From the NCBI GenBank assembly GCA_964016885.1, contig OZ024742.1, positions 43,958,001 through 44,022,000 on the forward strand: 64,000 bases of DNA, in the 5' to 3' direction. Within the stretch, counting starts at the first letter, position 1. The number at the start of each line of letters is the position of its first letter. Below the pieces are notes generated by a model, which made no database searches, had not been told where the DNA came from, and saw only the letters and a program-made list of their open reading frames with translations. The position numbers were made by a program, and so were the translations under genes. This DNA is from Eledone cirrhosa. Taxonomy: Eukaryota. Below are positions 1 to 57,387 of the stretch, in pieces.

Positions 1-498
1 GCAGACCTAGAAAAACATGGGATGAGCTGATAAACTCCGACCTCATACACTTACACCTCTCCAAGACAATGTCACTGGACCGTGACCTTTGGCGGTACTC
101 AGTAACAGAGAAGACCCGCCTTGCCAGTAGGCATCTCTAACAAACTACACCCCGTCCCGCCACCACCCCCACCCCATCCACACCACCCCGTTCCATGTAA
201 AGTTATGTTGGTGCCGCGCCATCCAGGCCGAAACAAACGAGATCGTGTAGGTGTCACGACAAAAAAACACACAGTCCACGCTGTAATGTGGCCGTGTAGG
301 CAACACGGTAAAAACCTCCCAGACCCACACTGTAAATGTGGTTGGTGTTAGGAAGGGCATCCAACTGTAGAAAACCTGCCAGACAGTCCTATGCGAGCAA
401 GACAATCACTCTTGCCTCAAGTGGGACTACCCCCGTCCAAACCCATGCAAGCGTGGAACACGGACGTTAAACGTTGATGATGATGATGATGATGATGA
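1..498 (+). mobile_element. RTE LINE family 1 (subfamily A), 3' end
   Basis: Encodes RPRKTWDELI...EKTRL, followed by a 3'UTR and (GAT)n tail. Near-identical to 35452-35998 and to the reverse complement of 44975-45525. Confidence 0.88.
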
Positions 499-7459: not shown

Positions 7460-10400
7460 CATCGTCATTAGTTAATGTCCATTTTCCAGTGCAGGCATAG
7501 TTTGAACAGGTCATTGCAGTTCTTATTCAGATTTGGGGAATACACACTCACACTCTCTCATTCTCTTTCACATATACATCATCATCATACATCAATTTTT
7601 CCATGTTTGATTGGTCTTTTCCTGCAAAACCTCCCTCCACTCGTATTCCTTCATCTCCTCTGTGAGATTCTGCATTTTGTTATCAACCCTAACCACCTCT
7701 GCCCAGGTTTTCTTAGTTTTCCTCTATTGCAGCTTCGTTTTACAAGCATCTCCTGGCAATTCTCATGCAGACATACAATCTACCTTTTGCTTGAAGGGAA
7801 AATCCTTTTGTTATCAACAGAAGTAGTAGTTTTTCCAGCCTGTTCTAGCTATTATACTTTTAGATCAACTTCCTCTACTTCTAAGGTCACCTAAGTAATA
7901 GAATCTATCAACTATTTTTATTGTACCTCCTGTGATTGGAAAAGGATTATTTCACTGCTGTTCTTACTACTAACCACCCTTGTGAATCTATCACATACAA
8001 AGTCTACCTTTTCGGTTAGCTTACCTGCTATCCCTCTACACCTTTTGTGCACACATATCTTACATTGTGTACTCTGTATAGAGTTCCTACTTACTCCTAT
8101 TCTACATATCAAGCGAGGCCACATCTCTGATGTCTTGTCCTTTTTCCTCCTTACTAAAGCTTTCATTTTTATGTTTACACAGAACCCTTTTCGTTCTAAA
8201 TTCTGATTTCACATCAAGAATTTTTTCTCTAATTCTTACACAGATTCAGTTTTAAGAACCAGGGCATCAGCATATAGAAGTTCCCATGGGCAGCTACTCT
8301 TAAAGACCCTTGTAATAAATAGGAGTGGGCTGATGACTGAATCCTGATGACTTCTTAACTGCACATTGATGTCCTCACTAAACTCATTACCTACTCTCAT
8401 TCCACTGACAGCATCTCTGTACATGTGCATTGCTCTCGCAAGCCACTCATCTACACACAGTTTCCTTAAGGACCACCAGATAACAGGTCATTCTATTCTG
8501 TTAAAGATCTTCTCCTGAACAACAACAATTTAGATATAGTGGCCTTCAGGCTATAACAGAGGAGTTTAAGACCGGCTGCCCATGGGAACTTCTATACGCA
8601 GATGATCTCTCATAGCTGAGTCTATGGCTGAACTAGAGAAGAAATTCCAAACATGGAAGCATGGCCTAGAATCAAAAGGCCTTAAAGTTAACTTGCCTAA
8701 GACTAAAGTTCTAGTATGTAGAAAGGAAAATAGGGCGCATGTGCCCTCTGGGAAATGGCCATGTTCAGTGTGTAGGAAAGGAGTAGTTAGAAATTCCATT
8801 TTATGTCCCAAATGCAAACTATGGGTACATAAAAGATGTAGTGGGATCACAGGTAAACTATCTAAGAACGTAGATTTTATGTGGCCGATGCTCAGGTGCA
8901 ATAAATAGCAAGTGTCCACAGGATACTAGCTCCTTCTATTGCCCAGATGGTTCTATAGAAATAGTGGACACTTTCCATTACCTGGGTGACGAAATCAGCA
9001 GTGGTGGAGGGTGCTCTGAAAGTACAGTAGCCAGAGTCAGAACGGGATGAAAAAGGTTCAGAGAGCTTATACCGCTGTTGGCCACAAAAGGTTTCTCTCT
9101 AAAAATGAAAGGCAGATTGTATGATGCCTGTATACGAACATCAATGTTACATGGCAGTGAGACATGGGTATTGTGTGCAGAGGATCTACGCAGACTGCAA
9201 AGGAATGAAGCATGCATGCTCCGTTGGATGTGTAATAGGAATATATACGAATGGCAAAACATAAATGAACTAAGTGAGAAATTAGGAATAAGAGGGATCA
9301 GATGCTGTTTACTTGAGAGAAGACTACGTTGGTATGGTCACGTGATGCACATGAAAGATGACAGCTGTATAAAAAAAGTGCAGGGCAATCAAAATTGATG
9401 GAAGTTACGGAGTAGGTAGACCCAGAAAAACCTGGGACGATTTGATAAATTCCCACCTTACACACTTGCACCTCTCTAAGACAATGTCACTGGACCGAGA
9501 TCTTTGGCACCACACAGTAATACAGAAGACCCGCCTTGCCTATGTACAAAGCGAAACCTACAGTCAGTAGGCACCTCTTAACCAAATATACACTCCAACG
9601 CACTACCCCTACTCCACCCTCCCACTCCCACCAACACCACCCTTTCTCTGTAAAATTATGTTGGTACCACAACATCCAGTCTAAACTGAGGTCGTGTAGG
9701 TGTCACAACAAAAAAACACACAGTCCACGCTGTAATGTGGCTGTGTAGATAGCACAGTAAAACCTCCCAGTCCACACTGTAAATGTGGTTGCTGTTAGGA
9801 AGAGCATCTAGCCGTAGAAAACCTGCCAGACAGTCTTATACGAGCGAGACACGGTCACCCGACCAATCTTGCCTCAAGTGGGACAATTCCCGTCTAATCC
9901 ATGCTTGCATGGAAGATAAACGTTAAACGGTGATGTTGATGATGATGGTTGACACTTAGCTAGAAACTTATCTTGTAATTGTTTCACTAAGAAGAGGGTA
10001 TTTGTGGTACTCCTTTCTGGCACAAAACCAAACTATATCTCGTCTAATGTAATTCTTAATTAGTTATGCTAACACCAGTTTTATGCTACTGTAGTTGCTC
10101 CTTTCCAGACCATTACCTTTTCCCATTATGACAATTAATGATTATACTGCTGCACCAATCATTGGGTATGACACCATCATGTATTACCTAATCGATTATG
10201 TGACTTGCTTGTCTCCTACTTCAGATTATTTCAGCATTTCAGCAACTATTTCTGACAGTCCAGCAGATTTTCCATTTTTCATTTCCCTGATTGCTTCTTT
10301 GACCTTATAACTGTCAACTTCAATAGCTGGTCCCTTAGTTGGATCTCATGGGAAATAGTCCCTCTCTCTTCCACTCATTTTCCACATTTATCAACCTCTC

Positions 10401-17581: not shown

Positions 17582-17920
17582 CATCATCATCATCATTTTA
17601 CGTCCGCTTTTTCCCTGCTTGCAAGGGTGGGACAGGAACTGATTCTGGCTTGATTTCTACAGCTGGATGCTCTTCCTAACACCAACCTCATTTACAGTGA
17701 GTGCTGAGTGCTTTTTTGCCGTGGCACCTCCACGACCACTTTGCAGGGGAATGATATGAACCGCAGTCCCTATCATCTCATTTCTACAGCTGAGTAAACT
17801 GGAGCAATGTGAAATAAAGTGTCTTGCTCAAGGAAACAACACATCACCTGGTCTGAGAATTGAACTCACAACCTTTCGATTGCAAGGCCAATTCTCTAAC
17901 CACTAAGCCATATGCTACCA
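17582..17920 (-). mobile_element. tRNA-derived SINE with RTE-type tail (family S1)
   Basis: Reverse complement of 53538-53879. Confidence 0.88.
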
Positions 17921-17929
17921 TAAAATAAA

Positions 17930-18062
17930 AATGAAAATTATTGTATACAGTGCTCAGGTGTACTACAACTCATCAAAGGTGCATGTATAGTACATAGAAT
18001 AATGTAAAAATGTCAGGAAAGTGAAGTGTATGAGTCATGATATACACACAGATACATGTGTA
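17930..18062 (-). mobile_element. CR1 3'UTR stub
   Basis: Matches 51370-51500 (tgtacagtgctcaggtgcactacaactcatc). Confidence 0.8.
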
Positions 18063-22658: not shown

Positions 22659-22880
22659 ATTGCTCAATGGAGTAAACTGTGGCGTCTGATTCAGGGCAGT
22701 GACTGTGACACATGTCGAGACTTAGGCGTTGATTTGGCACCCAGTGCTGCCTCCTCTCAGCTAGATCAAGAGCTTGATCACAGGGTGAAGCGTTTCCTGA
22801 TGGAACGTCATATACTTCGTATCCATCTTCCCAATGGAGGATTCAGTATGGTAAAATATGGGGACGCAACAGATATTAAG
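22659..22880 (+). CDS. PTK2: FAK exon A (N-terminal extension plus start of FERM F1: ...MERHILRIHLPNGGFSMVKYGDATDIK)
   Basis: Polypyrimidine tract + AG ending 22658, GT at 22881. MER...GDATD matches FAK MERVLKV...HGDATDV. Ends phase 0. The start may be ATG 22800 or an unseen upstream exon. Confidence 0.88.
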
Positions 22881-34345: not shown

Positions 34346-35451
34346 ATATTAACCTACTCCAAAACTACCTGTTTCTGTGAAAAAAACACCAATTTAAAAA
34401 GGTTCCTACTAAAATCCTATGTAATTATATATAAGAACATTTTGCTATGTTATAAAAACACAGTAACAAAAGGGTTCGAATAAACAATATATTGTATCAT
34501 AGAATCAGGGAGGGTTTGAGGCAGTTTGGTATCGAGTTTAAAAATCAACAATTTCTTTCCACTTAAAGATTGAATTCAGAGTTCAAACCTTTGTTTTATC
34601 ACCTTTTGTTATTTTTTTCTCTGCAAAATGGCTGATTATAATTGACCTATGAATTTTCTAACTAAAGCTATAATTAGTGGGCATTGAATTTCTTGTTAAT
34701 TATATTGTCTAAAATCTGCATTCTCTGGTGCTTCCATTCATCAATAAATGCAACACTTGGTGCTTACAAAATATGAATCATAATGATAATAAACTGTTAA
34801 ATACACTTTCATCATCATCATTATCACCATTTTACATCTATTTTCCATGTTTGCATGGGTTAGACAGGTTGTCACGTTGTTCTGAGGCTAAACAGATTGT
34901 CATCCTCATATGTTCCATTTTTGCATGGTTTCTATGGCTGGATACCATTCCTATCACAGTGTAGTAGGATCAGTTTGTTGTGGCACCACCATTATCATTT
35001 GACAGGGTGGACTGGGTGCTCTTTTTCATGGCACTAGCACTACCACTTTACAGTATGGGCTGGGGGTCTTTTATCATGGTACCAGCACTACTAATTTACA
35101 GTATAGGTTGGGTATTTTTTATCATGTCAACAGTACTATCACTTTACAGTATGGGCTAGGTACCTTTATTGTGGCACCAGCACTACATTATCATTTATTT
35201 CATTGGTATCAAAATGTTTGTTCCACTGATATGTGTAAAGTGAATTTAACCCATTGGTTACCATATTTTGTATTTTAATTAATTAATGAAGAATTCTTGA
35301 AAGGATTAACAAAAATTATTGTTTCATGAAGGTGGTATTTGTAACATAATAAAATGTTCCTATATAAAACTATGTTGGAGGAACCCTTTAAAATGGGTGG
35401 TTTTGTTTCATAAAAACAGGTGGTTTTAGGTGAGGTTGATATTAAAAAGGT

Positions 35452-35998
35452 AATAAAGATAGACGGTAGCCACGGAATAGGCAGACCTAGAAAAACCTGG
35501 GACGAGCTGATAAACTCCGACCTCACACACTTACACCTCTCCAAGACAATGTCACTGGACCGAGACCTTTGGCGGTACTCAGTAACAGAGAAGACCCGCC
35601 TTACCTAAATACATAGTAAAACCTACTACAGCCAGTAGGTATCTCTAACAAAATACCCCCTCGTCCCACCACCACCACCCCCACCCCATCCACACCACCC
35701 CGTTCTATGTAAAGTTATGTTGGTGCCACACCATCCAGGCCGAAACAAATGAGATCGTGTAGGTGTCACGACAAAAAAACCACAGTCCACACTGTAATGT
35801 GGCCGTGTAGGCAACACGGTAAAAACCTCCCAGACCCACACTGTAAATGTGGTTGGTGTTAGGAAGGGCATCCAACTGTAGAAAACCTGCCAGACAGTCC
35901 TATGCGAGCAAGACAATCACTCTTGCCTCAAGTGGGACTACCCCCGTCCAAACCCATGCAAGCGTGGAACACGGACGTTAAACGTTGATGATGATGAT
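35452..35998 (+). mobile_element. RTE family 1 subfamily A, 3' end
   Basis: IKIDGSHGIGRPRKTWDELI...EKTRLT*, 3'UTR and (GAT)n tail. Confidence 0.9.
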
Positions 35999-36019
35999 AA
36001 ACAGTTTTTTTCATGTGAT

Positions 36020-36622
36020 TTTTGGAGATTAGATTAGCATGGGAGGGGGAGTGTTCCGAGGCCATAGTATCTAGAATGACAGATTGAAAGAAGTTTAGGG
36101 AGCTGCTTCCTCTGCTGATAAAGAAGGGTTTATCCCTGCGTACGAAAGGCCGGTTATATGATGCTGCATGGAAGTGAGACATGGGCAGCAACTACAGAGG
36201 ATATGCGACGGCTGGAGAGAAATGAGGCAAGCATGCTCTGATGGATGTGCAATGTCAATGTGCGTGAACGATCCAGCATGGATGTGTTGAGAAACTGTGT
36301 CTGAGAGGGATAGAATGTAGTGTGCGAGAGAGGAGACTGCAGTGGTATGGACATGTGATGCGCATGGAGGATGACCGATGGGTGAAGAAGTGCCAGGAAA
36401 TGCCAGTTGAAGGAAGACGTGGTAGAGGTAGACCACGAAAAACATGGGCGGAGGTGGTGAGAACAGACCTCAGATCGCTGAAGCTCACGGTGGAGATGAC
36501 GAAGGACCGTGACAAGTGGAGAGGACGAAGGACCGTGACAAGTGGAGAGATGCTGTGCTGAATAAGACCCGTCCCACCCTAGCAAACAGGGAAAAGCGGA
36601 CGTAAAATGATGATGATGATGA
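36020..36622 (+). mobile_element. RTE LINE family 2, 3' fragment with a very short 3'UTR
   Basis: HGSETW, RERRLQWYGHVMR, GRRGRGRPRKTW; tail gaaaagcggacgtaaaa(tga)n. Confidence 0.88.
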
Positions 36623-36873
36623 AATGACTCTTCAATGATGTAATTACCTTAGTCTCAACGTAGTTTCAGAAGATTAAGTTGCTTGCCAGACAAGTACAAC
36701 TCCAAAATTCTATCTTTCAAATATTATCTACATCTTTCTCTGGGGAATATAAGTGGCCGGATGAATAACAAACTGGAGAACCAGTCAAGAGATTAGTGAT
36801 GTTATCAGCACTACATTTTGTGTGTGACTTCAACATGGCTCAGTACACTGTGCTGAAAACAGATGCCACTATA

Positions 36874-39042
36874 TCATCATCATCATCTTCGTTTAACGTC
36901 CATTTTCCACGCTAGCATGGGTTAGATAGGAGTTGTCCCACTTGAGGCAAGGCTAGTCGGGTGACCGTGTCTCACTCATATAGGTTTTCTATGGCTGGAT
37001 GCCCTTCCTAACACCAACCACATTTACAGTGTGAAACTGGGAACTTTTTACCGTGTTACCTACACGACCACATTACAGCATGGACTGTGTGTGTTTTTTT
37101 GTCGTGTCACCTTCACGAACTCGATCTCATTATCTCGTGCTGTTGGTGGGAGTGGGAGGATAGTAGATTGGAGTGTATATTTGGTTAAGAGGTGCCTACT
37201 GACTGTAGGTTTCGCTTTGTACATAGGCAAGGCGGGTCTTCTGTACTACTGCGTAGCGCCAAAGATCTCGGTCCAGAGACATTGTCTTAGAAAGATGTGT
37301 GTGTGGTCAGAATTTATCAGATCATCCCAGGTTTTTCTAGATCTACCTACTCCGTAACTACCATCAATTTTGATCGCCCTGCACTTTTTTATGCAGCTAT
37401 CATCTTTCATGCGCATCACGTGACCATACCAACGTAGTCTTCTCTCAAGTAAACAGCATCTGATCCCTCTTATTCCTAATTTCTCACTTAGTTCATTTAT
37501 GCTTTGCCGTTCATGTATATTACTATTACACATCCAACGGAGCATGCATGCTTCGTTCCTTTCCAGTCTACGCAGGTCCTCTGCACGTAATGCCCATGTC
37601 TCACTGCCATGTAGCATTGCTGTTCGTATACAGGCATCATACAATCTGCCTTTCATTTTTAGAGAGAAACCTTTGTGGCCAACAGCGGTATAAGCTCTCT
37701 GAACTTTTTCCATCCCGTTCTGACTCTGGCTACTGTACTTTCAGAACACCCTCAACCACTGCTGATTTTGTCACCCAGGTAACGGAAAGTGTCTACTATT
37801 TCTATAGAACCATCTGGGCAATGGAAGGAGCTAGTATCCTTTGGACACTTGCTACTTATTGCACCTGAGCATTGGCCACATATAAAGTCTACGTTCTTAG
37901 ATAGTTTACCTGTGATCCCACTACATCTTTTATGTACCCATACTTTGCATTTGGGACATAAAATGGAATTTCTGCCTACTCCTTTCCTATACACTGAGCA
38001 TGGCCATTTTCCTTTCTACAAACTAGAACTTTAGTCTTAGACAAGTTAACTTTAAGGCCTTTTGATTCTAGGCTATGCTTCCATGTTTCGAATTTCTTCT
38101 CTAGTTCAGCCATTGATTCAGCTATGAGCGTTAGATCATCTGCGTATAGGAGTTCCCATGGGCAGCCGGTCTTGAACTCCTCTGTTATAGCCTGAAGGGC
38201 AATAATAAATAAGAGGGGGCTAAGGACAGAGCCTTGATGAACACCAACTTTTACACTAAATTCTTCACAATATTCATTGTTAATTCCAACCTTACTGACT
38301 GTTTCATTATACATAGCTTGTATAGCTCTCACAAGCCATTCATCTACACCTAGTTTTCTAAGAGTTCACCAGATAATGGAGCGGGGGACTCTGTCAAAAG
38401 CTTTCTCCAGGTCTACAAAAGCTAAGTAGAGGGGTTTACTTTTAGCTAGGTACTTCTCTTGTAGTTGTTGTACAAGGAAAAGAGCGTCTGTGGTACTTTT
38501 ACCTGACACAAACCCAAACTGCATTTCATCTAGATCAATTCGCTCTCTGATTAGTTGCGCGATAACTCTTTCTGTGACCTTCATGACCTGGTCAACTAAC
38601 TTAATGCCTCTATAGTTTCCCATATCTAGAGCATCCCCTTTACCCTTGTAGCAGTTAATGATGATGCTGCTACGTCAGTCTTTCGGTATGACCCCATTCT
38701 GTATTACGTGGTTAACTATACGGGTGACCATAGTGTGTCCCACCATACCAGATGCCTTGCCTGTCTTCATATCTTTGATTGCATTACTTATTATACTACC
38801 TTTACTTGCACCGCTGGTCCTTCTATTGGATCGATTTGGAGCAGACTATCTTTTTCCCATTTATTATCCTCATTTTATAGTCTCTCGTAGTGACACTTCC
38901 AGGCTATCTTCTTATCAGTATCAGTGAGCGCAAGTATACCATTATCATTACGGACACACTTCTCCCTGACAATATCACGGTTTTCCTTGACACATTGTCT
39001 AGCAATCCTGAACACCTCACGTTTTTGGTCCTCACGTTGCAG
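36874..39042 (-). mobile_element. 5'-truncated RTE LINE family 1 (about 2.2 kb, disabled)
   Basis: NYRGIKL, QFGF, AFVDLEKAFDRV, VGVHQGSVLSPLLF, LYADD, C4HC3 finger, FRYLG, HGSETW; a few stops and frameshifts. Confidence 0.95.
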
Positions 39043-39810
39043 ATATATATATATATATATGTATGTGTGTGTATATATATAACAAATTTGGCAGCATATT
39101 TAACCCTGTGTGGATATAGCTTTGATATGTTTATTCTAGGGAGTATTTTTTAATTAGTGGTGTGGTGGGGGATATACTCAAACTAAAGGCTAGTCTAAAT
39201 GCTTGTAACAGAGTGAACATTCTTAATAGCATCCAAGGGTTAGGTGGTGATGTTAAATTGGGCAGTGGTTAAGCCTACCACCCAAGTAGACCACAGCAAA
39301 ATTTGAACTCTAAGAGCTGAACCGATATCACAAAACATCTCACCTGATGCCCTAACAGTTCCACCAATCCAACACCCTGGGTTAGTATTGTAATTTATTG
39401 ACCATCTCTCTATGCTGATTTGCTCTTTAGAGGCTCTACATGAACAGGAATTCTTCAGAATTGCAGCAGTAAGCTCTTTTCAATTCTTGGCTGCATATTG
39501 TGTAGTTGAGCAAGATACTTTATTTCACATTGGTCCAGTTTACTCAGCTGAAATAAAATGAATTGTACCTGTAATTCAATTTACCAGCCTTGTCACACAC
39601 AGTGTCACACTAAATCTAGAAGTTAATGTCTAATCACCCAATGATGGATACATATGATCATGGAATGTCTAGTAATTGTCTGGGTCATCTCACAACAGAG
39701 GACATGGTAATTAACCAATATGGTCCTATCTTTATAAATATAGATGCAGGCATAATTGAGTGACAAAGAAGTTTGTTTTGCAATTATGAAATCCCAGTGT
39801 GGCATCTTGG

Positions 39811-40026
39811 AATCGCCTGGAACTGCCCAAGGTTTTATGATGCATAACTGCTTATTTTAAAGTGGTTATAGTTATCTTAAAAACCTTCCGGCATAATAAA
39901 GGGACTATGAACTGTTTTTAGATATTTTCTGCTAAGTCAGAGGGTGTTATGAGTTGTTGATAATAATCTAGTTGCCCATGCCCAGTCCTTGCAAAGTCCA
40001 GGATTATCCGCTGACATGATTTAGTT
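39811..40026 (+). repeat. Left arm of a locus-specific inverted duplication (partner 43028-43262)
   Basis: Manual alignment gives about 10 substitutions and a few indels over ~215 bp. Confidence 0.9.
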
Positions 40027-40129
40027 GGCAGTTGTTATATACCAACTAAATAAAGTCTTTACTATAAACTTCAGTCATCCCAACACTTGTCAGTGAAGCT
40101 GGGTTGACCAAAAACTTTGTGAAAACATA

Positions 40130-40425
40130 TTGAATGGATTATGCCTGGGCATTTTTATCATGGCAACAGCACTATTGCCTTACAGTGTGGTCTGGGTATT
40201 TTTATCGTGGCACCAGCACTGTCACCTTACATTGTGGACTAGGCATTATTATTGTGGCACCAGCACTACCGCCTCACAGTGTGGGTTAGGCATTATTATT
40301 GTGGCACCAGCACCTCAACTTTACAGAGGGGACTGGGTATTTTTATCGTAGCACCAGCATTACTACCACCTTACAGTGTGGACTGGGTATTTTTATCATG
40401 GCACCAGCATTACAACTTTACAGAG
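40130..40425. repeat. Degenerate ~48-bp tandem array (gtggcaccagcactac..ttacagtgtggactgggtatttttat)
   Basis: About six units. Similar arrays at 31020-31210, 34960-35190 and 50745-50860; related to the RTE/SINE 3' region. Confidence 0.8.
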
Positions 40426-40480
40426 TTCATCATTATGAATCCTCATTCATATTATTTTTGTTTTGTTTTTTTCATTTTAG

Positions 40481-40656
40481 GATATAATTCGGCTGGTTGT
40501 TGGTCGTCTGAATGTGAGTGAGTCATATTATTCCCGATGCTATGCTCTGAAGTTGGTACATACACAATCACGAGAGAGTCATTGGTTGCATAATGATCTG
40601 ACAATGTTCCAAGTTCAAGAGAAATACAATCTGAAACATCCTATTGAAGTTTGGAG
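40481..40656 (+). CDS. PTK2: FAK exon B (FERM F1: DIIRLVVGRLNVSESYYSRCYALKLVHTQSRESHWLHNDLTMFQVQEKYNLKHPIEVWR)
   Basis: ttttag|GAT acceptor, AG|gtaaag donor, 176 nt, phase 0 to 2. HWLH.DL and EKY motifs of the FAK F1 lobe. Not in the ORF track. Confidence 0.93.
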
Positions 40657-41806
40657 GTAAAGACTTATTTCTTGTCTTCTGCTGTTTTTTATTTTAATTT
40701 TTTTAAATTATTATTGTTATTTACATAGTAAAAATTGTAAACAAATATTTCTATGATGACATTTTAACTTTGTTAAAATAACAGAAACCACTTCATTGTC
40801 ACCTCTGTCACCATTTTTGCCATCTTCATTACCATCATCATCATCATCATCATCATCATCACCACCATTTTTTTTTAAAAAGTAAGTTACTGAGCTACAG
40901 GACCTTTGTTTATGCAGGACATAAACAAACATCGCTACTGGCAGTGTGAAATGCTAAGTGAAGAAACCTTAACAAACTCACACTCACACATAACACATGA
41001 GGTTAGGGTGTGGGACTGTAACCAATATGGCTTTCTCTCACAATATCTCTCTGTATCACTCTCTCCCTCTCTACATAAATATGTATATATATATATCATC
41101 ATCATCATCGTTTAACGTCCATTTTCCACGCTAGCAGGAGTAGGATGGGCTGTTCCTTTGTGGTCAGAGGACCGAATTTTGCAGGGCTGATTTTGACTTG
41201 GTTTTTACGGCTGGATGCTCTTCCTAATACCAACCACATTTATAGTGTGTGCTGGGTGCTTTTTGTCGTATTACATCAAGACCACTTATATATATAATTC
41301 AAAATCTGACCACACTTGACATGGACAGATGGTGTACAAATCCTATTATCGCAGAGATGATGCCACTTTTGGTGCATTAAAAACGGAATTGTTCACTCCT
41401 ATGCACCAAGGATTGTAACACAGGAAGACAATATGACAACATAAGTAAATATGCTAGTGCCATGAGAAAATGTACCCAGTCAACTCTGTAGTGTCCATGC
41501 TGGTGTCACAACAAAAAGCACCCAGTCCATCCTGAAAAATGACTGTGACTGCATTGAAAAAAAGCTCCTAGTACAGTCAAAGTGGTTAGCATTAGAAAGG
41601 ACATCCAACCATAGAAAACCAAGCCAAAAATAGAACATTTGAGCAAGATATGGTCACCTGACCTGTCTAACCTCATAACATGACAACCCCACTAACCCAT
41701 GTAAGCATGGACAATAAACAACAGTAATGATGAATGATGATGAATAATGATGGATGATGATGATGATTGTATATCTGTATATTTCATTTTTTTGTTTTTG
41801 TTTCAG

Positions 41807-41894
41807 ATTTGAACTACGGGTACGTTACATGCCCGTTTCCTACAAAGATCTCCATCTCAAGGATAAAGTTACATTTGACTACCTCTATGATCAG
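41807..41894 (+). CDS. PTK2: FAK exon C (FELRVRYMPVSYKDLHLKDKVTFDYLYDQ)
   Basis: tttcag|A acceptor, CAG|gtatgt donor, 88 nt, phase 2 to 0. Matches FAK YELRIRYLP...FFYQQ. Confidence 0.94.
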
Positions 41895-42189
41895 GTATGT
41901 TACTTTTTGTATTCTTTTACTGTTTTCCACCATATTGGACTGTTGTATACTGCCTGACACACAAATACTCTTTTTACTGATGAAAGAAACAAAGAAAGCT
42001 GATACGTAGATCAGAACAAGGAAACAATATCTCCGTTGGTCTTTTCAATGCAGCTACTGTCTGGTGGTTTCAGCTCCTGGCAGAAACATCACCAGTTTGT
42101 ATAGTGACAAGAGGTGGGGATTGAACTCAGAACACACTGTCAGAACAGATACCGCAAAGCATCCTATAGGCCTCTGTAGCACAGTAAGC

Positions 42190-42490
42190 TAGGCGGCAAA
42201 TTGGTAGAGTTGTTAGAACGTTGGATTGAATGTTTTATGGTACTTGTTCTGGCTCTCTGCTCTCCGAGTTCAAATCCCACCGAGGTCAACTTTGCCTTTC
42301 GTCCTTTTGAGGTCAATAAAAAAAGTACTAGTCTAGTACTGGGATCGATTCTTCCTCTCTCTTGAAGAAATCTGCCTTGAGAGGAATGTGCTCCAACAGG
42401 CTTAAAATGCTCAAGAAACGCTATATGTACAGTACCCTACGACCCTATCAGGAGTTACGGGACCATACAATACAGCAGCGTGTCAGTCTC
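42190..42490 (+). mobile_element. S2 SINE variant
   Basis: tRNA-like head, gagttcaaatcc B box, gaggtcaactttgcctttc core, alternative tail. Confidence 0.7.
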
Positions 42491-43027
42491 ATAATCCATA
42501 TAGGGTCAGTGGTTATCTCTTTTTTTTTTTCTATAGCTTTAGTCAGATGTGAGTTGAATCTCTACCTAAATATGAAGGTTGGACAAACCTGATTTTCTTT
42601 ACTGTTCCCTCAAGAGGAATTGAACTTAGCTCTTCATTGTTATAGTGTTGCTGTTGTTCCTTCTATTTAGAGTTGTGTACATATCTCATGATAAACACAT
42701 AAATTTAGATATCATATATCTCATAGTCCATCTACTCCTAGTTAGATGTAGTTTCATAGTACACACATGAAGCTAGAGGCACTATATATTTCATAGCCCA
42801 TCTACCTATAACCAGGTGTACTATATGTTTCATGGTACACTTACATGAAGCTAAAGCTACTGTATAAGGTGTACGATGTCTCATCGTCCACTTACAGCTA
42901 AGTGAACTGGACTTATACTCAAGTACATATTTATATAACATACATATCATCATCATCATCATCGTTTAACGTCTATCTTCCACGCTAGCATGGGTTTAGA
43001 CATACATAGATAGCTCTACCATACATA

Positions 43028-43262
43028 TCAGCTAAAGATGTCAGTGGATAAACCTGGACTTTGCAAGGACTGGGCAATGGGGAACTAGATTATTATTATG
43101 TTAGTATTATCAACAACTCATAACACCCTGTAATGACTTGGCAGAAAATATCTAAAAACAGTTTATAGTCCCTTTATTATGCCGGAAGGTTTTTAAGATA
43201 ACTATAACCACTTTAAAATAGGCAGTTATATATCATAAAACCTTGGGCAGTTCCAGGCGATT
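43028..43262 (-). repeat. Right arm of the inverted duplication
   Basis: Reverse complement of 39811-40026, with a short AT-rich insertion. Confidence 0.9.
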
Positions 43263-44207
43263 TTATATTAAAAGGGTTAACCATTTAATGATCATATTTC
43301 TAATGAAATACACTATTTCAATTAATGAAGAAATTTGAGGGATTTACTAAAATTATTATTTAATTAGTAAGATAGTAACTTAACATATTATTCTTATACA
43401 AAATTGTTGAAAGATTTTTATTTAAATAACCTCTTTAAAATTGGTGATTTTGTTTCATAGAACGAGAGCCAGTTCTGGCCGAGATGGTATCAAAGGTTTT
43501 TTTAAAAACTATTTTCACTTGTCTGTACGGTGGTTGTTAATTGACAAAACAATGCCAAAACTCCTCAGTCTTTATCAATCTGTGATAAAAGATTCTGCTT
43601 CAAAATCGTTATATAACTCTTGTCACTTCATTATGGCAATCTAACGTAAACCCATATTTTTTTTTACACATATAATAATATTCCGACACCATCCCAAATG
43701 AGAGGTATTAACTCTCTCACTTATCTCACATAGATCGTTACATACAATACTCTGAACGGTGGTGGTAATGGAGGCGGGGTGAGATACTGTATATGTGGGG
43801 AGAATGGTTTAGTGATTTATTACGTTAGATATCGAGTGGAATGGTATGGTAGGGGACGTGGGAGAAAGGGTTGCCTGTATGACTAAAAGTTTTTCCCTGA
43901 GTGAGTCATTTCCATAACGAAAGCTTTTACAAAGGTCTGACTCAGTTATCTCCCTTGTAGTGTGTGCATACATAAATGTGTGTGTGTATGTATGTTTGTG
44001 TGTATATATAAGGGTGGGAATAGGATTCACGCCTTTGTCTTCTATAAGATGTAATAGATAAATAATTAGATAGGTAGGGACGTGTGTGCGTGTATACGCA
44101 AAAGCGTGTGAATATGTACATAAATGTTTGCATAAGCAAACGTGTGTATATGTACATAAATGTTTGCATAAGCAAACGTGTGTACATGTTTGTGTATTAT
44201 CAACATC

Positions 44208-44974: not shown

Positions 44975-45642
44975 TCATCATCATCATCATCATCAACGTT
45001 TAACGTCCGTGTTCCACGCTTGCATGGGTTTGGACGGGGGTAGTCCCACTTGAGGCAAGAGTGATTGTCTTGCTCGCATAGGACTGTCTGGCAGGTTTTC
45101 TACAGTTGGATGCCCTTCCTAACACCAACCACATTTACAGTGTGGGTCTGGGAGGTTTTTACCGTGTTGCCTACACGGCCACATTACAGCGTGGACTGTG
45201 TGTTTTTTTGTCGTGACACCTACACGATCTCATTTGTTTCGGCCTCGAAGGCGCGGCACCAACATAACTTTACATAGAACGGGGTGGTGTGGATCGGGTG
45301 GGGGTGGGGGTGGTGGGACGGGGTGTATTTTGTTAGAGATGCCTACTGGCTGGAGTAGGTTTTACTATATATTTAGGTAAGGCGGGTCTTCTCTGTTACT
45401 GAGTACCGCCAAAGGTCTCGGTCCAGTGACATTGTCTTGGAGAGGTGTAAGTGTGTGATGTCGGAGTTTATCAGCTCGTCCCAGGTTTTTCTAGGTCTGC
45501 CTATTCCGTGACTACCGTCTATCTTTATTGCCCTGCACTTTGTTATACAGCTATCGACTTTCATGCGCATCACGTGTCCATACCAACGTAGCCTTCTCTC
45601 GAGTAAACAACATCTGATCCCTCTTATCTCTAATTTTTTCCT

Positions 45643-45647
<5 letters not shown>
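44975..45647 (-). mobile_element. RTE family 1 subfamily A, 3' end
   Basis: RRLRWYGHVMR...EKTRLT*; near-identical to 35452-35998; its 5' end abuts (TA)n. Confidence 0.92.
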
Positions 45648-47509: not shown

Positions 47510-49904
47510 CTACTCGATCCCAAGCAGATGTGTGCGGCTTTTCAGCGACACTTTGCTCAGTTGTTCGGGGGCAGCAGCGGGCCAGATCGTGCGATGGACT
47601 TTAGTGCCTATCTCGACGGACTGCCGCGGCTCTCGGCCATTGAAATAGCGTGTTGCGAATAGCCGATAACAGCTGCTGAAGTATGGGAGGCAATGACTGG
47701 CTGTACAATGAGTAAATCGCCTGGTTTGGATGGTCTGCCCTACGAACTTCACGTACATATGCCAGACTTGTTCGGAGACCTCTTGGCAGACGTCTACTGC
47801 AACTGGCAGCAGAACGGGAGAATTCCGAATTCCCAGCTCTGAGAGCCGAGGAGAAAGGATCCGAACAAAGGGGATAACATAGATAATTTCAGGCCCATAA
47901 CTCTGCTAAACACAGTTCAAGATTTTGGCTAAGGTGCTAGCAAAGAGGTTGGTGCTTGTTGTCAGTGGGAGAGGCGCAGACATGCGCCATTCCAGACAGA
48001 TCCATCCACAACAACCTCCACTTCATGCGATGCGTCTTGGAGAGGGTAGCTAGGGAACACCGCACAGGTGGGTCTTTGATCAATTTAGATCGGTTGAAAG
48101 CTTTCGATAGGGTCAACCATCGTTATCTGGCGGCAGTCCTGAGGGTGGCTGGCTTTGGGTCTATCTTCAGAGGCTGGATTGCTGCCATGCATGACGACAT
48201 CTGCTCTGTGGTGAGAGTGAACGGTCACCTTTCAGAACCGTTAAACATCATGCGCTCGGTCCGCCAAGGATGTCTTCTCTCATCCCTGTTGTACGTATTG
48301 ACTCTCGAGCCATTACTGCACAAACTGGAGACGTTGAGGGGTGTCCCGCGTGAACTAGGATGTGGAAGAACCATGTCAGCATATGCAGACGTCACCGTAG
48401 TGGTGTCGAACGCCAAACATATCAAGGCGGTGACAGGAGCAATGATCAACCAAGGAAAGTCGGTGGGCCTGCAGCTCGGCACCTGGAGAGGCAGGTCCAT
48501 GCCATCCAACAACGTCGTCGGGCGCTGGACGGACGGATGGACTGGTTAAATTGCTAGGGGTCTGGTTCGGTCCAGACCTCCATACGAACAAAAACTGGGA
48601 CGAGGTGACGAGCAGGGTGGCCTCTCTCACCCAGAAATGGGCCGAGAGGAAGCTATCCCTGAAAGGTCGAGCGGAGGTGGCGAACGTGTACATAGCATCC
48701 GTCATCTACTACTGCCTGACTGAGCTGGAGCATTTGATCTTTCGCTCTTTGTGGAGGGGACGCGCTCCGATAGTCAGGCGGTCCACCCGCTACGCGGAGG
48801 GCTGGGCACGCCGTGACTGATAATGCGCTCAGGCTACTGCATCTCCACCTCTTCCTCGGCGGTGATCAGGTGTGGTCGCCCTTGCTAGATGCTTGTTTCC
48901 CCAGCTCATCTCCTTGACGGAGCTGCAGTACTGGGTGAAGCGAAAACCAAGAGGGAGCATGTGGAGACTGGAATGTCTTCAGGCGCTTACAGCCCTCGAC
49001 CAGTCGGGCAATGCGATCGGTGGAAACTCCACCTTGGCATTCTATAGAGGATTAGTGGAGGGAAAGAGCGATGACGTCCTTGGGTCGACTCTGGACGTTA
49101 ACGAAAATCAACTAGCCAATTCTCTTCAGGAGAACTTTCGGGCCAGGGCCCATAGACAGCTTCCAGAAATCCCTGGCCTGGCAGTGCTACCGAGGAGCCT
49201 TGCCAGTTCGGGATAAACTCTATAGGCATGGAAGTGCCATCAGCCGGGCCTGTCCGAGATGTGCGCAGGGCGACGAAACCATCCTGCATGCACTCGTCCA
49301 GTGTTCGAGCATTGCATACTTGTAGGTTTATGTCGAACACCTGCTGTCGCGTGTAGGACAGATCCGGCTATCAGCTGAGTCCATCATGAGAATTGCCCCG
49401 CTGCCTTCCTTTAGCCGGGAAGGGCAGGCAGTTTTTATCTGCCTGGTGGCCATGGTAAAAGAGATTGTATGGTAGACATGTCTGAAAGGGTTGAAGATGG
49501 GTACTTTCCTCTTCGGTGACGCCCTCATTAACTTTTTCAGGTTTCACCTGAAAATGTAAATCTGGGTGGAGCCAGTTTGTTGAATGGTGGGTGAGAGAGG
49601 CAAGAATGGCCCGTGTGAATGGGCCTACCCTGAGCGTGTGCCTGTAGTATTGTAGGAGAAAAACTGGAAGAGGCCGCTTGCCCTGGCGGTCAGGGTAACC
49701 GTGCCTTTTTTTGTGGGCTTTCTCCACGAGCGACTTTTGGAAGTCTCCTCCCTATTGGGGAATTTTTCATTGTTTCTTTTTTTTTTGTTACATCCTCTGT
49801 TTTTGTTTTTTTTACACGCAGAAATGCCCATTTGTACCGTCTTGTGTTGTCCTTAATGTTATACTTTGTGTCAACCCTTGTGGTTAATAAAGAAAGCATT
49901 ATTA
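47510..49904 (+). mobile_element. 5'-truncated Tx1/L1-clade LINE (disabled ORF2)
   Basis: KSPGLDGLP, NFRPITLLN, KAFDRVNH, SVRQGC, AYAD, LGVWFG, LSLKGR and a C-terminal CPRC...ETILHALVQC knuckle; T-rich 3'UTR, AATAAA, (ATT)n. GC-richer than the host DNA. Confidence 0.88.
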
Positions 49905-50585: not shown

Positions 50586-51013
50586 CTCTATCTCTCCCTT
50601 TCTCTCTCATTTTCTTACTCTCTTTTTCTCTTTCCCTCTCTTTTTCTTTCCTTCTCTCTCTCTCTCTTTCCTTCTCTCTCTCTCTCTCTTTCCTTCTCTC
50701 TCACTCCTTCTCTCTCTCTCTCTACAAACACACATACGATATGACTGGAGTCTTACAAGGTAACTGGGTGCTTTTTTTTCATGGCATCAGTACAACCACC
50801 TTATAAGGTGGACTGGGTACTTTTTGTTGTGACACAAGCACGACCTTCTTACAGGGTAATCAACCTTATATATAGTTCATGGTTTGGAGTATTCTGCACA
50901 GATAGTATATTAATAAAATTTCAATACAACTAGATTTTTACATATAATTTACATAGTATTTTCATGTTTTCTGGAACACTCATCAGGTGAATGTTAACAT
51001 GGCCGCTATATCT

Positions 51014-51340
51014 ATCATCATCATCATCATCATCATACGTCCGCTTTTCCCTGCTTGCAAGGGTGGGACAGGAACTGATTCTGGCTTGATTTCTACAGCT
51101 GGATGCCCTTCCTAACACCAACCTCATTTACAGTGAGTGCTGGGTGATTTTTTGCCGTGGCACCTCCACAACCACTTTGCAGTGGAATGATAGGGACCCC
51201 AGTCCCTATCATCTCATTTCTGGAGCAATGTGAAATAAAGTGTCTTGCTCAAGGAAACAACACATCACCCGGTCTGAGAATTGAACTCACAACCTTTCGA
51301 TTGCAAGGCCAATGCTCTAACCACTAAGCCATGTGCCTTC
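51014..51340 (-). mobile_element. S1 SINE
   Basis: Reverse complement of 53538-53879 apart from one short deletion. Confidence 0.9.
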
Positions 51341-51361
51341 ATATATATATAATAATATCTA

Positions 51362-53480
51362 TAATAATAATGAAATATTGTGTACAGTGCTCAGGTGCAC
51401 TACAACTCATCAAAAAGGGTATGTATAGTATATAGGGTAATGTACAAACGTCAGGAAAATGAACAGTGCATGAGTCATGATATACACATGTGTGCATGTG
51501 TATGGAAGGGGTACATCAGGTGTAGTTTTGGCGAATTTCGGGAAGCATGAGGGTTTTAAAGGATGCAGTGTCTTGGCAGCTAACAACTGATGCAGGCGGT
51601 TTGTTCCATGCTTCAGCAACTCTGAGTGTGAAAAAATATTTACGAAAGTCATGGGAGCTGTGCTGTTTTCTGATTTTGTAGGCATGTCCATTTGTGTTAG
51701 TCACATGGAGATCAAAAAGGTACTCAGGGTTGTTGTTGGCGAGATGGTTAATAACTTTGTGGGTATTTACCAAGTCCATTGCCAGGCGTCGGAGCTTCAA
51801 TGTATCCATGCCCAGGGAAGCAAGGTGTTCAGAGTATGGTAGGTGTCTGATGGAGGGTATGCGCTTGGTTGCACGTCTCTGAACAGTTTCCAGGAGGTCA
51901 CTGTTCTGAGCAAGATAGGGGTTCCAGATTGATGATGCGAATTCCAAGTGTGGTCGTACCATAGCTGTATACAGCTTTAAATAGATGGCTGGAGAGCGGC
52001 TAACAAAGGTCTTGCTGAGTGATGCCAAGACACCCTCGGCCTTCTTGACACTCTTAGAGACATGCTTTGTCCAATGCAAATCGCTGCTGACAGTAATGCC
52101 CAGGTCACGTTCACAAGAGGACTTCTTGATATCAGTGTTGTGGAGGGAGTATGTGGACGCTGGATTTTTCCTCCCAAAATGCATGGTGGTACACTTGTCC
52201 ACAGCCAGCTTCAGTTGCCAGTCTGTGATCCATTGCTGCATTGTGTCCAGGTCTGATTGTAGAAAAGAGTTGTAGATTTCAGGATCAGTCCTTTTGATTT
52301 CAAGGTACAACTTGATGTCATCTGCATATTTCAGGACCGTGGCATTCTTTAAGTTGGCATCTATGTCATTAATATATGCTACAAACAAAAGGGCACCAAG
52401 AACAGATCCCTGTGGTACACCAGATGACATCTCATATGGTGAAGAATGCTGTCCTCGAACCGTAACTACCTCTTTTCGGCTGAGAATGAAAGATTTCAAC
52501 CACTTAAAAAGATCATCCCTCACACCCATTGCAGAGAGTTTTGCCATAAGTCTTTTGTCTGGCACAGAATTAAAAGCCTTAGCGAAGTCAAGGTAAACAA
52601 CATCCACCCATGAGCTGCTGTCAGTGATCCGGGTAATGTCTTCAAGGAACTCGATAAGCTGATCACAGCAGCTGGAGTTGGGGATAAATCCAAACTGCGA
52701 GGGCCGGATGAGGCTGTGAGAGCTCCAGAAGTTCCAAAGTGTTTCTCTGACACAGGATTCCATCAGTTTGGCAATACAGCTAGTAAGACTGACTGGACGA
52801 TAGTTGACAGGTGACGTGTGATCACCCTTTTTGAACAGGAGAATGACGCTGGCAGTTTTCCACTGTTCCGGAGTAGCACCATTGTTGAGACAGTATTGAA
52901 AAAAGAAAGAAAGCTGGTGCAAAAGGAAGTACCCGCCACATTTGAGAAGCAGGTATGCAACACCATCAAGACCAGGGGAGGCATAGTTGTGCTTATTCTT
53001 AAGGTGACGTCGCAACATTGCAGGTGTAAATTCCATAGTTCTTATGGAATTTGATGTTAGAGATGGTGGAGATGGTACATTCTGGTTTTCAACAGTAAAA
53101 ATGCTTGCACAGCACTCAGCAATGAGTTCTGCGCATTCTTTGGGATCGTCAGTGATCTGGCTTGTGTGGGGATTGCGAAGAGGACCAACTAGAGAGTGAG
53201 GTCTCTGCTTTGAATGAACATATTTCCAGAACACCTTACTGTCAGGATTGGTTGCTATGCACTGTTCAAATTCAAGCACTGCCTTTTTTGTCACTTGCTT
53301 GATATGGTTGTAAGATTTATTCCGCTTTTTTCTTTTAGCATCTGATTTATGCAGTTTATATTCCCGTTCAGCGTTCCAACGTTCTTTCCTGGCAAGTCGG
53401 ACCACTGAAGTTTCCCAAATTGCACTTTTGGGGTGGGTTTTTTTCTGCTTACGTGGCACTGATGCTGCACACGCCATCCA
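51362..53480 (-). mobile_element. 5'-truncated CR1-clade LINE with an uninterrupted RT ORF (stop at 51516)
   Basis: SPGLDG, NYRPVSLTS, QFGF, VYLDFAKAF, GVPQGSVLG, YADD, ERDLG, VRPHLE, LETVQRRAT, FFTLRV..AWN; 3'UTR ending in (ATT)n. Confidence 0.95.
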
Positions 53481-53494
53481 TATAGATATATAAA

Positions 53495-53530
<36 letters not shown>

Positions 53531-53537
53531 CACACAT

Positions 53538-53879
53538 GGAGGCACATGGCTTAGTGGTTAGAGCATTGGCCTTGCAATCGAAAGGTTGTGAGTTCAATTC
53601 TCGGACCGGGTGATGTGTTGTTTCCTTGAGCAAGACACTTTATTTCACATTGCTCCAGTTTACTCAGCTGTAGAAATGAGATGATAGGGACTGGGGTCCA
53701 TAACATTCCACTGCAAAGTGGTCATGGAGGTGCCACGGCAAAAAAGCACCCAGCACTCACTGTAAATGAGGTTGGTGTTAGGAAGGGCATCCAGCTGTAG
53801 AAATCAAGCCAGAATCAGTTCCCGTCCCACCCTTGCAAGCAGGGAAAAGCGGACGTAAAATGAAATGATGATGATGAAA
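53538..53879 (+). mobile_element. S1 SINE (tRNA head, central domain, RTE tail)
   Basis: A box tggcttagtgg 53547-53557, B box gttcaattc 53592-53600; tail shared with RTE family 2. Confidence 0.9.
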
Positions 53880-54936
53880 TGATATGAGTGTGTGTGTGGT
53901 CCACACTGTAAATGTGGTTGGTGTTAGGAAGGGCATCCAGCCGTAGAAAACCTGCCAGATAGTCCTATATGAGCGAGACACGGTCACCCGACCAACCTTG
54001 CCTCAAGTGGGACAACTCCCGTCTAACCCATGCTAGCGTGGAAGATGGATGTTAAATGAAGATGATGATGAGATGATGATATATATATTTTGTGTGTATA
54101 TCACCATCATGATCATCATTTAATGTCCATTTCCCACTCTAGTATGGGTTAGACGAATTGCCCTATTCTGAGGCAGGCGGGGTCTGATGACCATGAATTG
54201 CTCATACAGAACTGGTTTTGAGTTGGTTTCTACGGTCGGATGCCCTTATCACCAAACACTATGTGTGTATATATTTTTCATCACATCGGCTGTCTAATGA
54301 GCAGATTAATAATGGAGTCAGGTCAATAACTCCTACGGATGACCTTGAGCCAATCCTCTGTGAAACGAACATAACGGGTCCATTACACAATAAGAAATAT
54401 TATACATGTAAACAAAACTTCCTTGTTTTTTCTAATATATATAATTTCATAAGTCACTATGGTTGAATAGCCTTCGGATACAAGTTGAACATAGCCAAAT
54501 AAATATTATGACTATATTCTACCCAATTTGGTGAGGCCAAGGGATGGTTGTGTGTACATTATATATGTATGGGTGTTGCATTTCATATCTGGCTAACTAG
54601 TTTCAGGGTTGGTGACATGCATGCATGCATTCATAACTACATTACATACACATATATATAGTATACAGCACATGCATACTTACATAAATATGCACACATG
54701 TACACACACACATTTATACTGTATTCAACATACCTCTACTATATATATATATATATGTGAGAGAGAGAGCTCTACTACATACAATATACATACACACACA
54801 CTATTTCTTATTTATACAATATACATAGCTTCACTACATACATAGATGTACTACTTCCAAGTTAGGATAGGTGGCAGTATTTTGTTTGCTCCACTCCTTA
54901 CATCTATTAACATGGCATCTAACATAATATAACAAA

Positions 54937-57307: not shown

Positions 57308-57387
57308 GTTCGGAATGACTACATGCTTGATGTGGCTGAACATGTCGACCATGATGTTGCTATTCGACTTGGTTGTATTGAAATGAG
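57308..57387 (+). CDS. PTK2: FAK exon D (VRNDYMLDVAEHVDHDVAIRLGCIEMR)
   Basis: ttacag|GTT acceptor, AG|gtgaga donor, 80 nt, phase 0 to 2. Matches VKSDYM...ALKLGCLEIR (F2 lobe). Confidence 0.94.

What the first reader, a model, noticed from the sequence alone, without database searches (positions are those of the whole stretch)
39811..43262. Locus-specific inverted duplication brackets a 264-nt in-frame FAK exon pair: candidate circRNA with a stop-free reading frame, or a FERM-deleted isoform
Seen: 39811-40026 and 43028-43262 are >90% reverse-complementary. They lie about 450 nt upstream of exon B and 1130 nt downstream of exon C. The arm is a mosaic (apparently unique sequence, the start of one repeat, the end of an M2 MITE whose terminal TIR survives only on the right), which suggests local inverted duplication rather than two transposon insertions. 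By hand count, 6 of 7 transitions between the arms remain G-U pairable on the FAK sense strand. Exons B+C total 176+88=264 nt, phase 0 at both ends, and are isolated by the two longest introns (17.6 and 15.4 kb). Back-splicing (..YDQ|DIIR..) gives a circle with in-frame AUGs and no stop; skipping removes 88 aa of FERM F1/F2 in frame. Known: flanking complementary repeats and long introns promote back-splicing, ADAR opposes it, and FERM autoinhibits FAK. Any function here is inference.
Basis: partly seen in the sequence, partly recalled or inferred. Interest (0 to 1): 0.8.

Follow-up and report, generated by a model that had tools for sequence, protein, structure and literature searches.

The report
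FAK intron hairpin with edited retrocopy
A short inverted duplication brackets two exons of an octopod focal adhesion kinase gene, a common arrangement in this genome with no RNA data to show that it makes a circular RNA, but a third copy on another chromosome carries one-strand A-to-G changes that likely record RNA editing of the hairpin before a retrotransposon copied it back into DNA.

Summary
The arms (205/216 aligned bases identical; 87% with gaps), exons B+C (264 nt, phase 0/0) and stop-free circle are real. The right arm is the donor; the left arm was pasted into a SINE. But the pair is not exceptional: 10 similar two-copy inverted pairs lie in 400 kb of random DNA, a 551-nt 97% pair also brackets B+C, 18 of 51 FAK exon blocks keep frame, the G-U bias is 6/7 (p=0.06), and 0 of 83 mollusc FAK proteins lack B+C. 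No RNA run was available. The arm is not two-copy: a third copy on contig C1 holds the left arm plus its flank, fused 5' of a 47-nt CR1/L2-type LINE 3' end, antisense to FAK. Within the arm it carries 11 A>G and 0 T>C changes on that strand (p about 0.003); repeat families mark 8 as new in C1; neighbouring DNA shows no such bias. Most likely: a young neutral duplication whose RNA hairpin is an ADAR substrate and at most a weak back-splicing signal, with one edited antisense transcript fixed in the genome by LINE reverse transcription (about 50%).

The parts
39811..40027 (.). left arm: inverted copy of the right arm, inserted into a SINE
43029..43262 (.). right arm: donor; runs on in register into the intact end of the M2 repeat (terminal repeat ending in TTAA at 43280)
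   Evidence: family copies align through 43262 to the terminus
39746..39810 (+). 5' part of a tRNA-like SINE split by the left arm (profile positions 1-54 at 39771-39810)
40056..40130 (+). continuation of the split SINE (profile positions 63-136, E 1.5e-8)
40019..40051 (.). junction filler with a perfect 10-bp fold-back (40019-40028 / 40042-40051), as template-switch repair leaves
   Evidence: sequence; mechanism inferred
39620..39978 (-). segment (left flank + most of left arm) copied to G000:C1:365973875-365974240, fused there 5' of a LINE 3' stub
   Evidence: short-read contigs reproduce both versions (records 7 and 8)
22659..22880 (+). FAK exon A (222 nt)
40481..40656 (+). FAK exon B (176 nt), FERM F1
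41807..41894 (+). FAK exon C (88 nt)
57308..57387 (+). FAK exon D
35449..35998 (.). outer inverted repeat copy, upstream of B (551 nt, 97% to 44983-45532); dispersed repeat
44983..45532 (.). outer inverted repeat copy, downstream of C
51365..53480 (-). 5'-truncated copy of the same CR1/L2-type LINE family as the C1 stub, antisense to FAK, 8 kb downstream of the right arm; a possible, untested source of antisense read-through
   Evidence: RVT_1, E 2e-34

Best explanation
The two arms are a young local inverted duplication in repeat-rich FAK introns that is predicted to fold into a 216-bp RNA duplex and likely acts as a neutral ADAR substrate rather than a selected circRNA switch, and the third copy on C1 is likely an edited antisense transcript of this hairpin that a LINE reverse transcriptase copied back into DNA. 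Steps: (1, shown) about 230 nt next to an M2 repeat end downstream of exon C was copied, inverted, into a SINE upstream of exon B; (2, computed) RNA from either strand can pair the arms (-353 kcal/mol sense, -330 antisense); (3, inferred) ADAR edits the duplex, which would weaken back-splicing, so a B+C circle would be a low-level by-product; (4, shown) 39620-39978 also lies on C1 directly 5' of the last 47 nt and (ATT)n tail of a CR1/L2-type LINE, in the orientation antisense to FAK; (5, inferred) the LINE enzyme switched from its own RNA to, or copied a ligation product with, an antisense FAK-intron RNA in the germ line, reading inosines as G, which fixed 11 A>G changes in the arm.
For: Direction: SINE split by the left arm; right arm continuous with the family terminus. 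Ordinariness: 20 inverted pairs (>=200 bits, >=85%, spacer <=5 kb) in 8 of 20 random 20-kb regions, 10 of them two-copy within the 614 kb sampled; inverted and direct pairs equally frequent; 20 inverted matches span B+C, one far stronger. C1: whole-arm copies are three only (searches give lower bounds); stub belongs to an RT-encoding LINE; 8-nt direct repeat at both insert ends. In 147 arm columns C1 alone differs at 16 sites, 11 T>C and 0 A>G in FAK-sense letters, i.e. A>G on the LINE's strand (p=0.0035 two-sided); family copies hold the left/right letter at 8 of the 11 sites, 1 is ambiguous, 2 uninformative; without T>C the arm and flank are equally diverged (7/147 vs 10/191); no strand bias in repeats within 20 kb of the C1 copy (58 T>C vs 75 A>G); comparable clusters in 3 of 475 background windows, 2 of them microsatellites; 5' neighbours U6 A3 C2 G0, in the ADAR direction (motif from passages of PMC4365171). 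Octopus circRNAs are few and low (296; PMC9699675 passages and supplement).
Against: One event, noticed after the fact, with 11 sites. The 5'-neighbour bias is not significant (p=0.056). The copied flank also has 5 T>C (and 4 A>G) of 15 differences, two of which may be C1-derived, so confinement to the duplex is moderate (Fisher p=0.026). No antisense transcript is known; no RNA was seen. The 8-nt repeat has up to a 4% chance rate, overlaps a motif that ends many copies of this LINE, and clear target duplications were not evident in most of 29 other copies. The C1 right flank does not continue the repeat that forms its left flank. The copy's left end falls within 3 nt of a truncated SINE at the donor and both ends lie at the same 7-mer, which this model does not explain. 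0 of 3 other LINE-stub flanks had a single distant donor, so no second case.
Confidence: 0.55

Rival explanations
1. Same neutral duplication, but the C1 copy is a DNA-level capture (break repair or a LINE cDNA copying genomic DNA) and its one-strand T>C excess is chance; nothing then shows that the hairpin ever formed in RNA.
For: Single post-hoc observation; flank also carries T>C; one genuine background window shows 6 T>C of 10 changes; no antisense RNA known; target duplication uncertain.
Against: 11:0 strand ratio (p=0.0035), polarised to C1 at 8 sites, strand agrees with LINE orientation, no local bias.
Confidence: 0.27
2. One reading: the arms drive regulated back-splicing of B+C into an abundant 264-nt circle, possibly translated by rolling circle.
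For: Geometry fits; only block of 60 in FAK with a strong proximal inverted match; long flanking introns; 6/7 G-U-compatible transitions; human PTK2 yields several circRNAs from this part of the gene (PMC8365522, PMC8513360 passages).
Against: Chance rate gives about one such block per gene; arms are young (5% diverged) and carry 19 gap columns; stop-free frame is automatic; octopus circRNAs low. The human circle cited is 482 nt and by size matches A+B+C (486 nt here), not B+C (inference); exon A and A-C are spanned by stronger though distal inverted matches (1676 and 1026 bits).
Confidence: 0.12
3. The hairpin loops out B+C to give an in-frame FERM-deleted, de-inhibited FAK.
For: A-to-D join is in frame.
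Against: 0 of 83 mollusc FAK proteins that hold both exon A and exon D lack B+C, including 19 of 19 from Octopus (12 of 95 proteins were fragments or began in or at B and were set aside; the set was found through exon B and its clusters, so it leans towards inclusion). The 88 residues map to about positions 33-120 of chain 2J0J_A, most of lobe F1 and the start of F2 (lobe limits recalled), so misfolding is more likely than activation.
Confidence: 0.04
4. The arms are terminal inverted repeats of a 3.4-kb transposon, or two insertions of one dispersed element.
For: Arm contains repeat pieces; a third copy exists.
Against: Exons are the native single-copy FAK exons (one FERM_N_2 match in the genome); no whole-element copy elsewhere; only three copies of the mosaic; the left arm splits a SINE and lacks the terminus.
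Confidence: 0.02

Closest known systems
Exonic circRNAs promoted by reverse-complementary intronic matches, antagonised by ADAR (Ivanov et al. 2015, cited in PMC9699675; human circPTK2 such as hsa_circ_0002483, hsa_circ_0005982)
   Same: Inverted matches in long introns around early FAK/PTK2 exons; canonical splice sites.
   Different: No junction evidence here; arms are a local duplication, not dispersed Alu-like copies; the human 482-nt circle corresponds by size to A+B+C; octopus circRNA levels are low.
5'-chimeric LINE insertions (U6/L1, Alu/L1, mRNA/L1 chimeras; bioRxiv 10.1101/2025.02.02.635956, passages)
   Same: Non-LINE sequence from one distant locus fused 5' of a truncated LINE 3' end with tail and a short flanking direct repeat; template switching or RNA ligation proposed.
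   Different: CR1/L2-type LINE in a mollusc; the captured piece is intronic and antisense to its host gene; it carries clustered one-strand A>G changes. That paper has 0 occurrences of 'ADAR' or 'editing' and ascribes antisense mRNA chimeras to twin priming, which here would predict the opposite strand bias.
ADAR hyper-editing of intronic inverted repeats (PMC4365171, passages); APOBEC 'DNA editing' fixed in genomic retroelements (Carmi et al. 2011, seen only as a reference line)
   Same: Dense same-strand A>G cluster in a region with an inverted partner within 10 kb; no G 5' of the changed A.
   Different: Here the cluster is in genomic DNA of a copy, not in RNA reads; it is A>G, not the G>A of APOBEC, and in host intronic sequence rather than in the retroelement.

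Membership tests
RCM-driven exonic circRNA | inverted match in both flanking introns | tested here: met
RCM-driven exonic circRNA | long flanking introns and canonical splice sites | tested here: met
RCM-driven exonic circRNA | back-splice junction reads, RNase R resistance | not testable with these tools
   no RNA holder listed
RCM-driven exonic circRNA | placement beyond chance or conserved | tested here: inconclusive
   1.5-2.7% of random cores; no other cephalopod genome reachable
FERM-deleted FAK isoform | A-to-D skipped transcript or protein exists | tested here: not met
   0 of 83 proteins, biased sample, other species only
5'-chimeric LINE insertion (C1 copy) | LINE 3' end with tail, from an RT-encoding family | tested here: met
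5'-chimeric LINE insertion (C1 copy) | 5' part from one distant donor locus, directly abutting | tested here: met
5'-chimeric LINE insertion (C1 copy) | target-site duplication around the whole insert | tested here: inconclusive
   8-nt repeat; chance up to 4%
5'-chimeric LINE insertion (C1 copy) | both parts arrive together (empty site in an outgroup) | not testable with these tools
   no related genome held
ADAR hyper-edited sequence | dense A>G on one strand, derived | tested here: met
   11 vs 0; 8 polarised
ADAR hyper-edited sequence | G depleted 5' of edited A | tested here: inconclusive
   0 of 11 vs 5 of 53 in background; U enrichment p=0.056
ADAR hyper-edited sequence | editing seen in RNA against DNA | not testable with these tools
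TIR transposon carrying exons | element copies elsewhere, terminal repeats at both outer ends | tested here: not met

The most novel reading that the evidence does not exclude
In a coleoid germ line, ADAR-hyper-edited host intronic RNA is reverse-transcribed by a CR1/L2-type LINE and fixed in the genome: the C1 insert is a DNA fossil of A-to-I editing that proves the FAK-intron hairpin formed in vivo, and LINE-tailed captures could serve as a genome-wide, datable record of ancient editing and a route by which editing becomes heritable mutation.
Probability: 0.45. Interest if true: 0.62.

Novelty: new member of a known kind. Interest (0 to 1): 0.36.

Why it matters
As a circRNA or isoform candidate it is one of probably thousands in this genome and matters little without RNA. 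The C1 copy matters more: cephalopods edit RNA on a very large scale, and whether edits ever re-enter the genome is rarely testable. If the A>G cluster is editing, it shows germ-line ADAR activity on antisense intronic RNA, gives in vivo evidence for a hairpin from DNA alone, and suggests a simple genome-wide screen (LINE-tailed captures versus their donors). Four literature searches (open-access library only) listed no paper reporting this in a mollusc; ADAR-type hypermutation in retroviral and viral genomes is recalled as precedent, not checked.

Tried and rejected
RNA: no RNA holder listed, which is no evidence either way; three contig sets of one sample were laid on 35000-40660 only, so the right arm and exon C were not checked in reads. 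Transcription-coupled mutation as the cause of the G-U bias or of the C1 bias: rejected, no strand asymmetry in the FAK window or around C1. General RNA-templated origin of local inverted pairs: 26 pairs checked, the two with a one-strand bias were a microsatellite artefact and a small patch of misaligned triplet repeat. Second LINE-tailed capture: 3 of about 40 stub flanks searched, none had a single distant donor. Trace of the C1 tail spacer at the donor: none in the window and 50 kb upstream. Contiguous empty site at C1: left flank matches M2, right flank not significant. Rfam: no match in the window. Octopus circRNA list of PMC9699675: not found; only 24,410 characters of the two zip files were searchable and gave no hit, the PDF gives only the count, so a FAK circle in that list is neither shown nor excluded. 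Earlier scan findings: none. Conservation of the arms in other cephalopods could not be tested.

Full report
Setting. The window is G000:C3:43958001-44022000 of a 3.0-Gb genome. Exon B is 95% identical in protein to Octopus FAK and 76% to a decapod-type sequence, so this is an octopod FAK gene. Exons were placed against Octopus FAK in the window and 150 kb of neighbours: A 22659-22880, B 40481-40656, C 41807-41894, D from 57308; introns 17,600, 1,150 and 15,413 nt; an upstream coding exon at -5177..-5103 makes the intron before A about 27.7 kb.

The observation. The arms 39811-40027 and 43029-43262 match at 205 of 216 aligned columns with 19 gap columns. B+C is 264 nt, phase 0 at both ends and stop-free as a circle. 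Six of seven transitions keep G-U pairs on the sense strand, p=0.0625 against a null of 0.50 measured on repeats in this window. Short-read contigs of one sample reproduce the left junction exactly (290 nt, 0 differences, depth 10) and show the arm region at low copy, depth about 400-600 against 10^5-10^6 in neighbouring repeats; this sample may be the one assembled.

Origin and direction. About 35 other copies of the M2 repeat align through 43262 to the terminus at 43280, so the right arm is in its native setting. On the left, a profile built from 11 natural SINE copies matches 39771-39810 (positions 1-54) and 40056-40130 (positions 63-136): the arm splits a SINE. The filler at the junction has a perfect 10-bp fold-back. 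So the right arm is the donor and the left arm an inverted insertion, probably by template-switch repair (inferred).

Is it special? In 20 random 20-kb regions there are 20 inverted pairs of >=200 bits, >=85% identity and spacer <=5 kb; 10 pairs had only two copies in the 614 kb sampled, several longer and closer in sequence than this one. A random 1.4-kb core is bracketed with both arms within 1.2 kb in 50 of 3240 placements and within 2 kb in 80 of 2920; direct repeats do so as often. Twenty inverted matches span B+C, the strongest a 551-nt, 97% pair (duplex -1095 vs -353 kcal/mol). Eighteen of 51 blocks keep frame. None of 83 mollusc FAK proteins that hold exons A and D lacks B+C; 12 of 95 were set aside as fragments or as starting in or at B, and the set leans towards inclusion. 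The deletion would remove about positions 33-120 of chain 2J0J_A. In Octopus vulgaris only 296 high-quality circRNAs were found, at low level (PMC9699675, main-text and supplement passages; the list itself not seen). Human hsa_circ_0002483 is 482 nt (PMC8513360 passages), which by size matches A+B+C (486 nt here; human B is three codons shorter); this is my inference. No RNA run was listed.

The third copy. Three genome searches found one more copy of the mosaic, at C1:365973875-365974240 (counts are lower bounds). It covers 39620 to about 39978, including the SINE-head/arm junction, so it came from the left locus after the duplication. Contigs in all three runs carry it with 27 differences and 5 gap bases over 39649-39939, the number expected from the assembly. 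Read on the strand antisense to FAK it is followed at once by 47 nt and an (ATT)n tail that end a LINE: 29 other copies share this end and the longer ones carry a reverse transcriptase frame on the same strand (RVT_1; clade name CR1/L2 from recalled motifs). An 8-nt direct repeat flanks the insert (chance up to 4%). Seven such LINE ends lie in the 214-kb FAK region, so abutting by accident is unlikely. This is the build of a 5'-chimeric LINE insertion (bioRxiv 10.1101/2025.02.02.635956, 12 of 30 passages seen).

The mutation pattern. In 147 three-way arm columns, left alone differs at 2, right alone at 4, C1 alone at 16, of which 11 are T>C and none A>G in FAK-sense letters: A>G on the LINE's strand, p=0.0035. 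Family copies carry the left/right letter at 8 of the 11 sites (for example 57/58, 53/55, 44/45), one is ambiguous, two uninformative. In the copied flank the counts are 5 T>C and 4 A>G of 15 (Fisher p=0.026 against the arm); without T>C, arm and flank diverge alike, 7/147 and 10/191. Repeats within 20 kb of C1 show no strand bias. Among 475 background windows 3 had such clusters, two microsatellite and one of 6 changes, against 1 C>T cluster. The 5' neighbours are U6 A3 C2 G0, in the ADAR direction (PMC4365171 passages) but not significant. The simplest account is an antisense RNA spanning both arms, edited in the duplex, then copied by the LINE enzyme. Twin priming on sense pre-mRNA would give the opposite bias. 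A copy of the same LINE lies antisense at 51365-53480 and could supply read-through (untested). Against: one post-hoc case, no antisense RNA seen, 0 of 3 other stub flanks had a donor, and the coincidence of both copy ends with one 7-mer and of the left end with a truncated SINE is unexplained.

Verdict. The hairpin is real, young and ordinary; a functional circle (12%) or FERM-deleted kinase (4%) has no support beyond geometry. The worthwhile lead is the C1 copy as a probable DNA record of ADAR editing (45-50%). Searches listed no report of this in molluscs (listings and abstract starts only). Interest 0.36.

Noticed in passing
window 51008-53885: A 5'-truncated LINE with a 707-codon open frame (minus strand) is bracketed by a 374-nt, 91% inverted SINE/repeat pair; the same LINE-tail-to-SINE junction recurs at 17609-18062 and in locus L097, suggesting a mobile composite with long inverted ends carrying a LINE fragment.
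   Followed up: partly
random regions L102-L141 (400 kb): Local inverted duplications of 150-900 nt with spacers under 5 kb are frequent (10 two-copy pairs in 7 of 20 regions; 7 pairs in G000:C4:300.00-300.02 Mb alone): a large pool of potential ADAR substrates.
   Followed up: partly
window 39612-39619 and 39968-39975: The segment copied to C1 is bounded at the donor by the same 7-mer at both ends, and its left end lies 3 nt from a truncated SINE (39498-39617). Unexplained.
   Followed up: no
L003:1195-1222: The C1 insertion site is itself a truncated M2 fragment, inverted relative to the M2 part of the insert, so homology may have guided the event.
   Followed up: partly
window 8537-9946 and 36873-38204: Inverted LINE fragments (1420 nt, 86%) bracket exon A alone; 673 nt at 93% (-146..495 with 44975-45647) bracket A+B+C: rival circle candidates with stronger but distal matches.
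   Followed up: partly
L073, L075, L084, L092, L093, L099: Young copies of this LINE carry a tandem duplication of their last ~120 nt (two 3' ends in a row).
   Followed up: no
window 47941-49216: Broken reverse-transcriptase element of another LINE clade on the plus strand (RVT_1).
   Followed up: no
L059:9000-9150: An M2 copy about 11 kb from the C1 insert has 6 T>C of 10 changes against its family, the only non-microsatellite A>G/T>C cluster in 475 windows.
   Followed up: no
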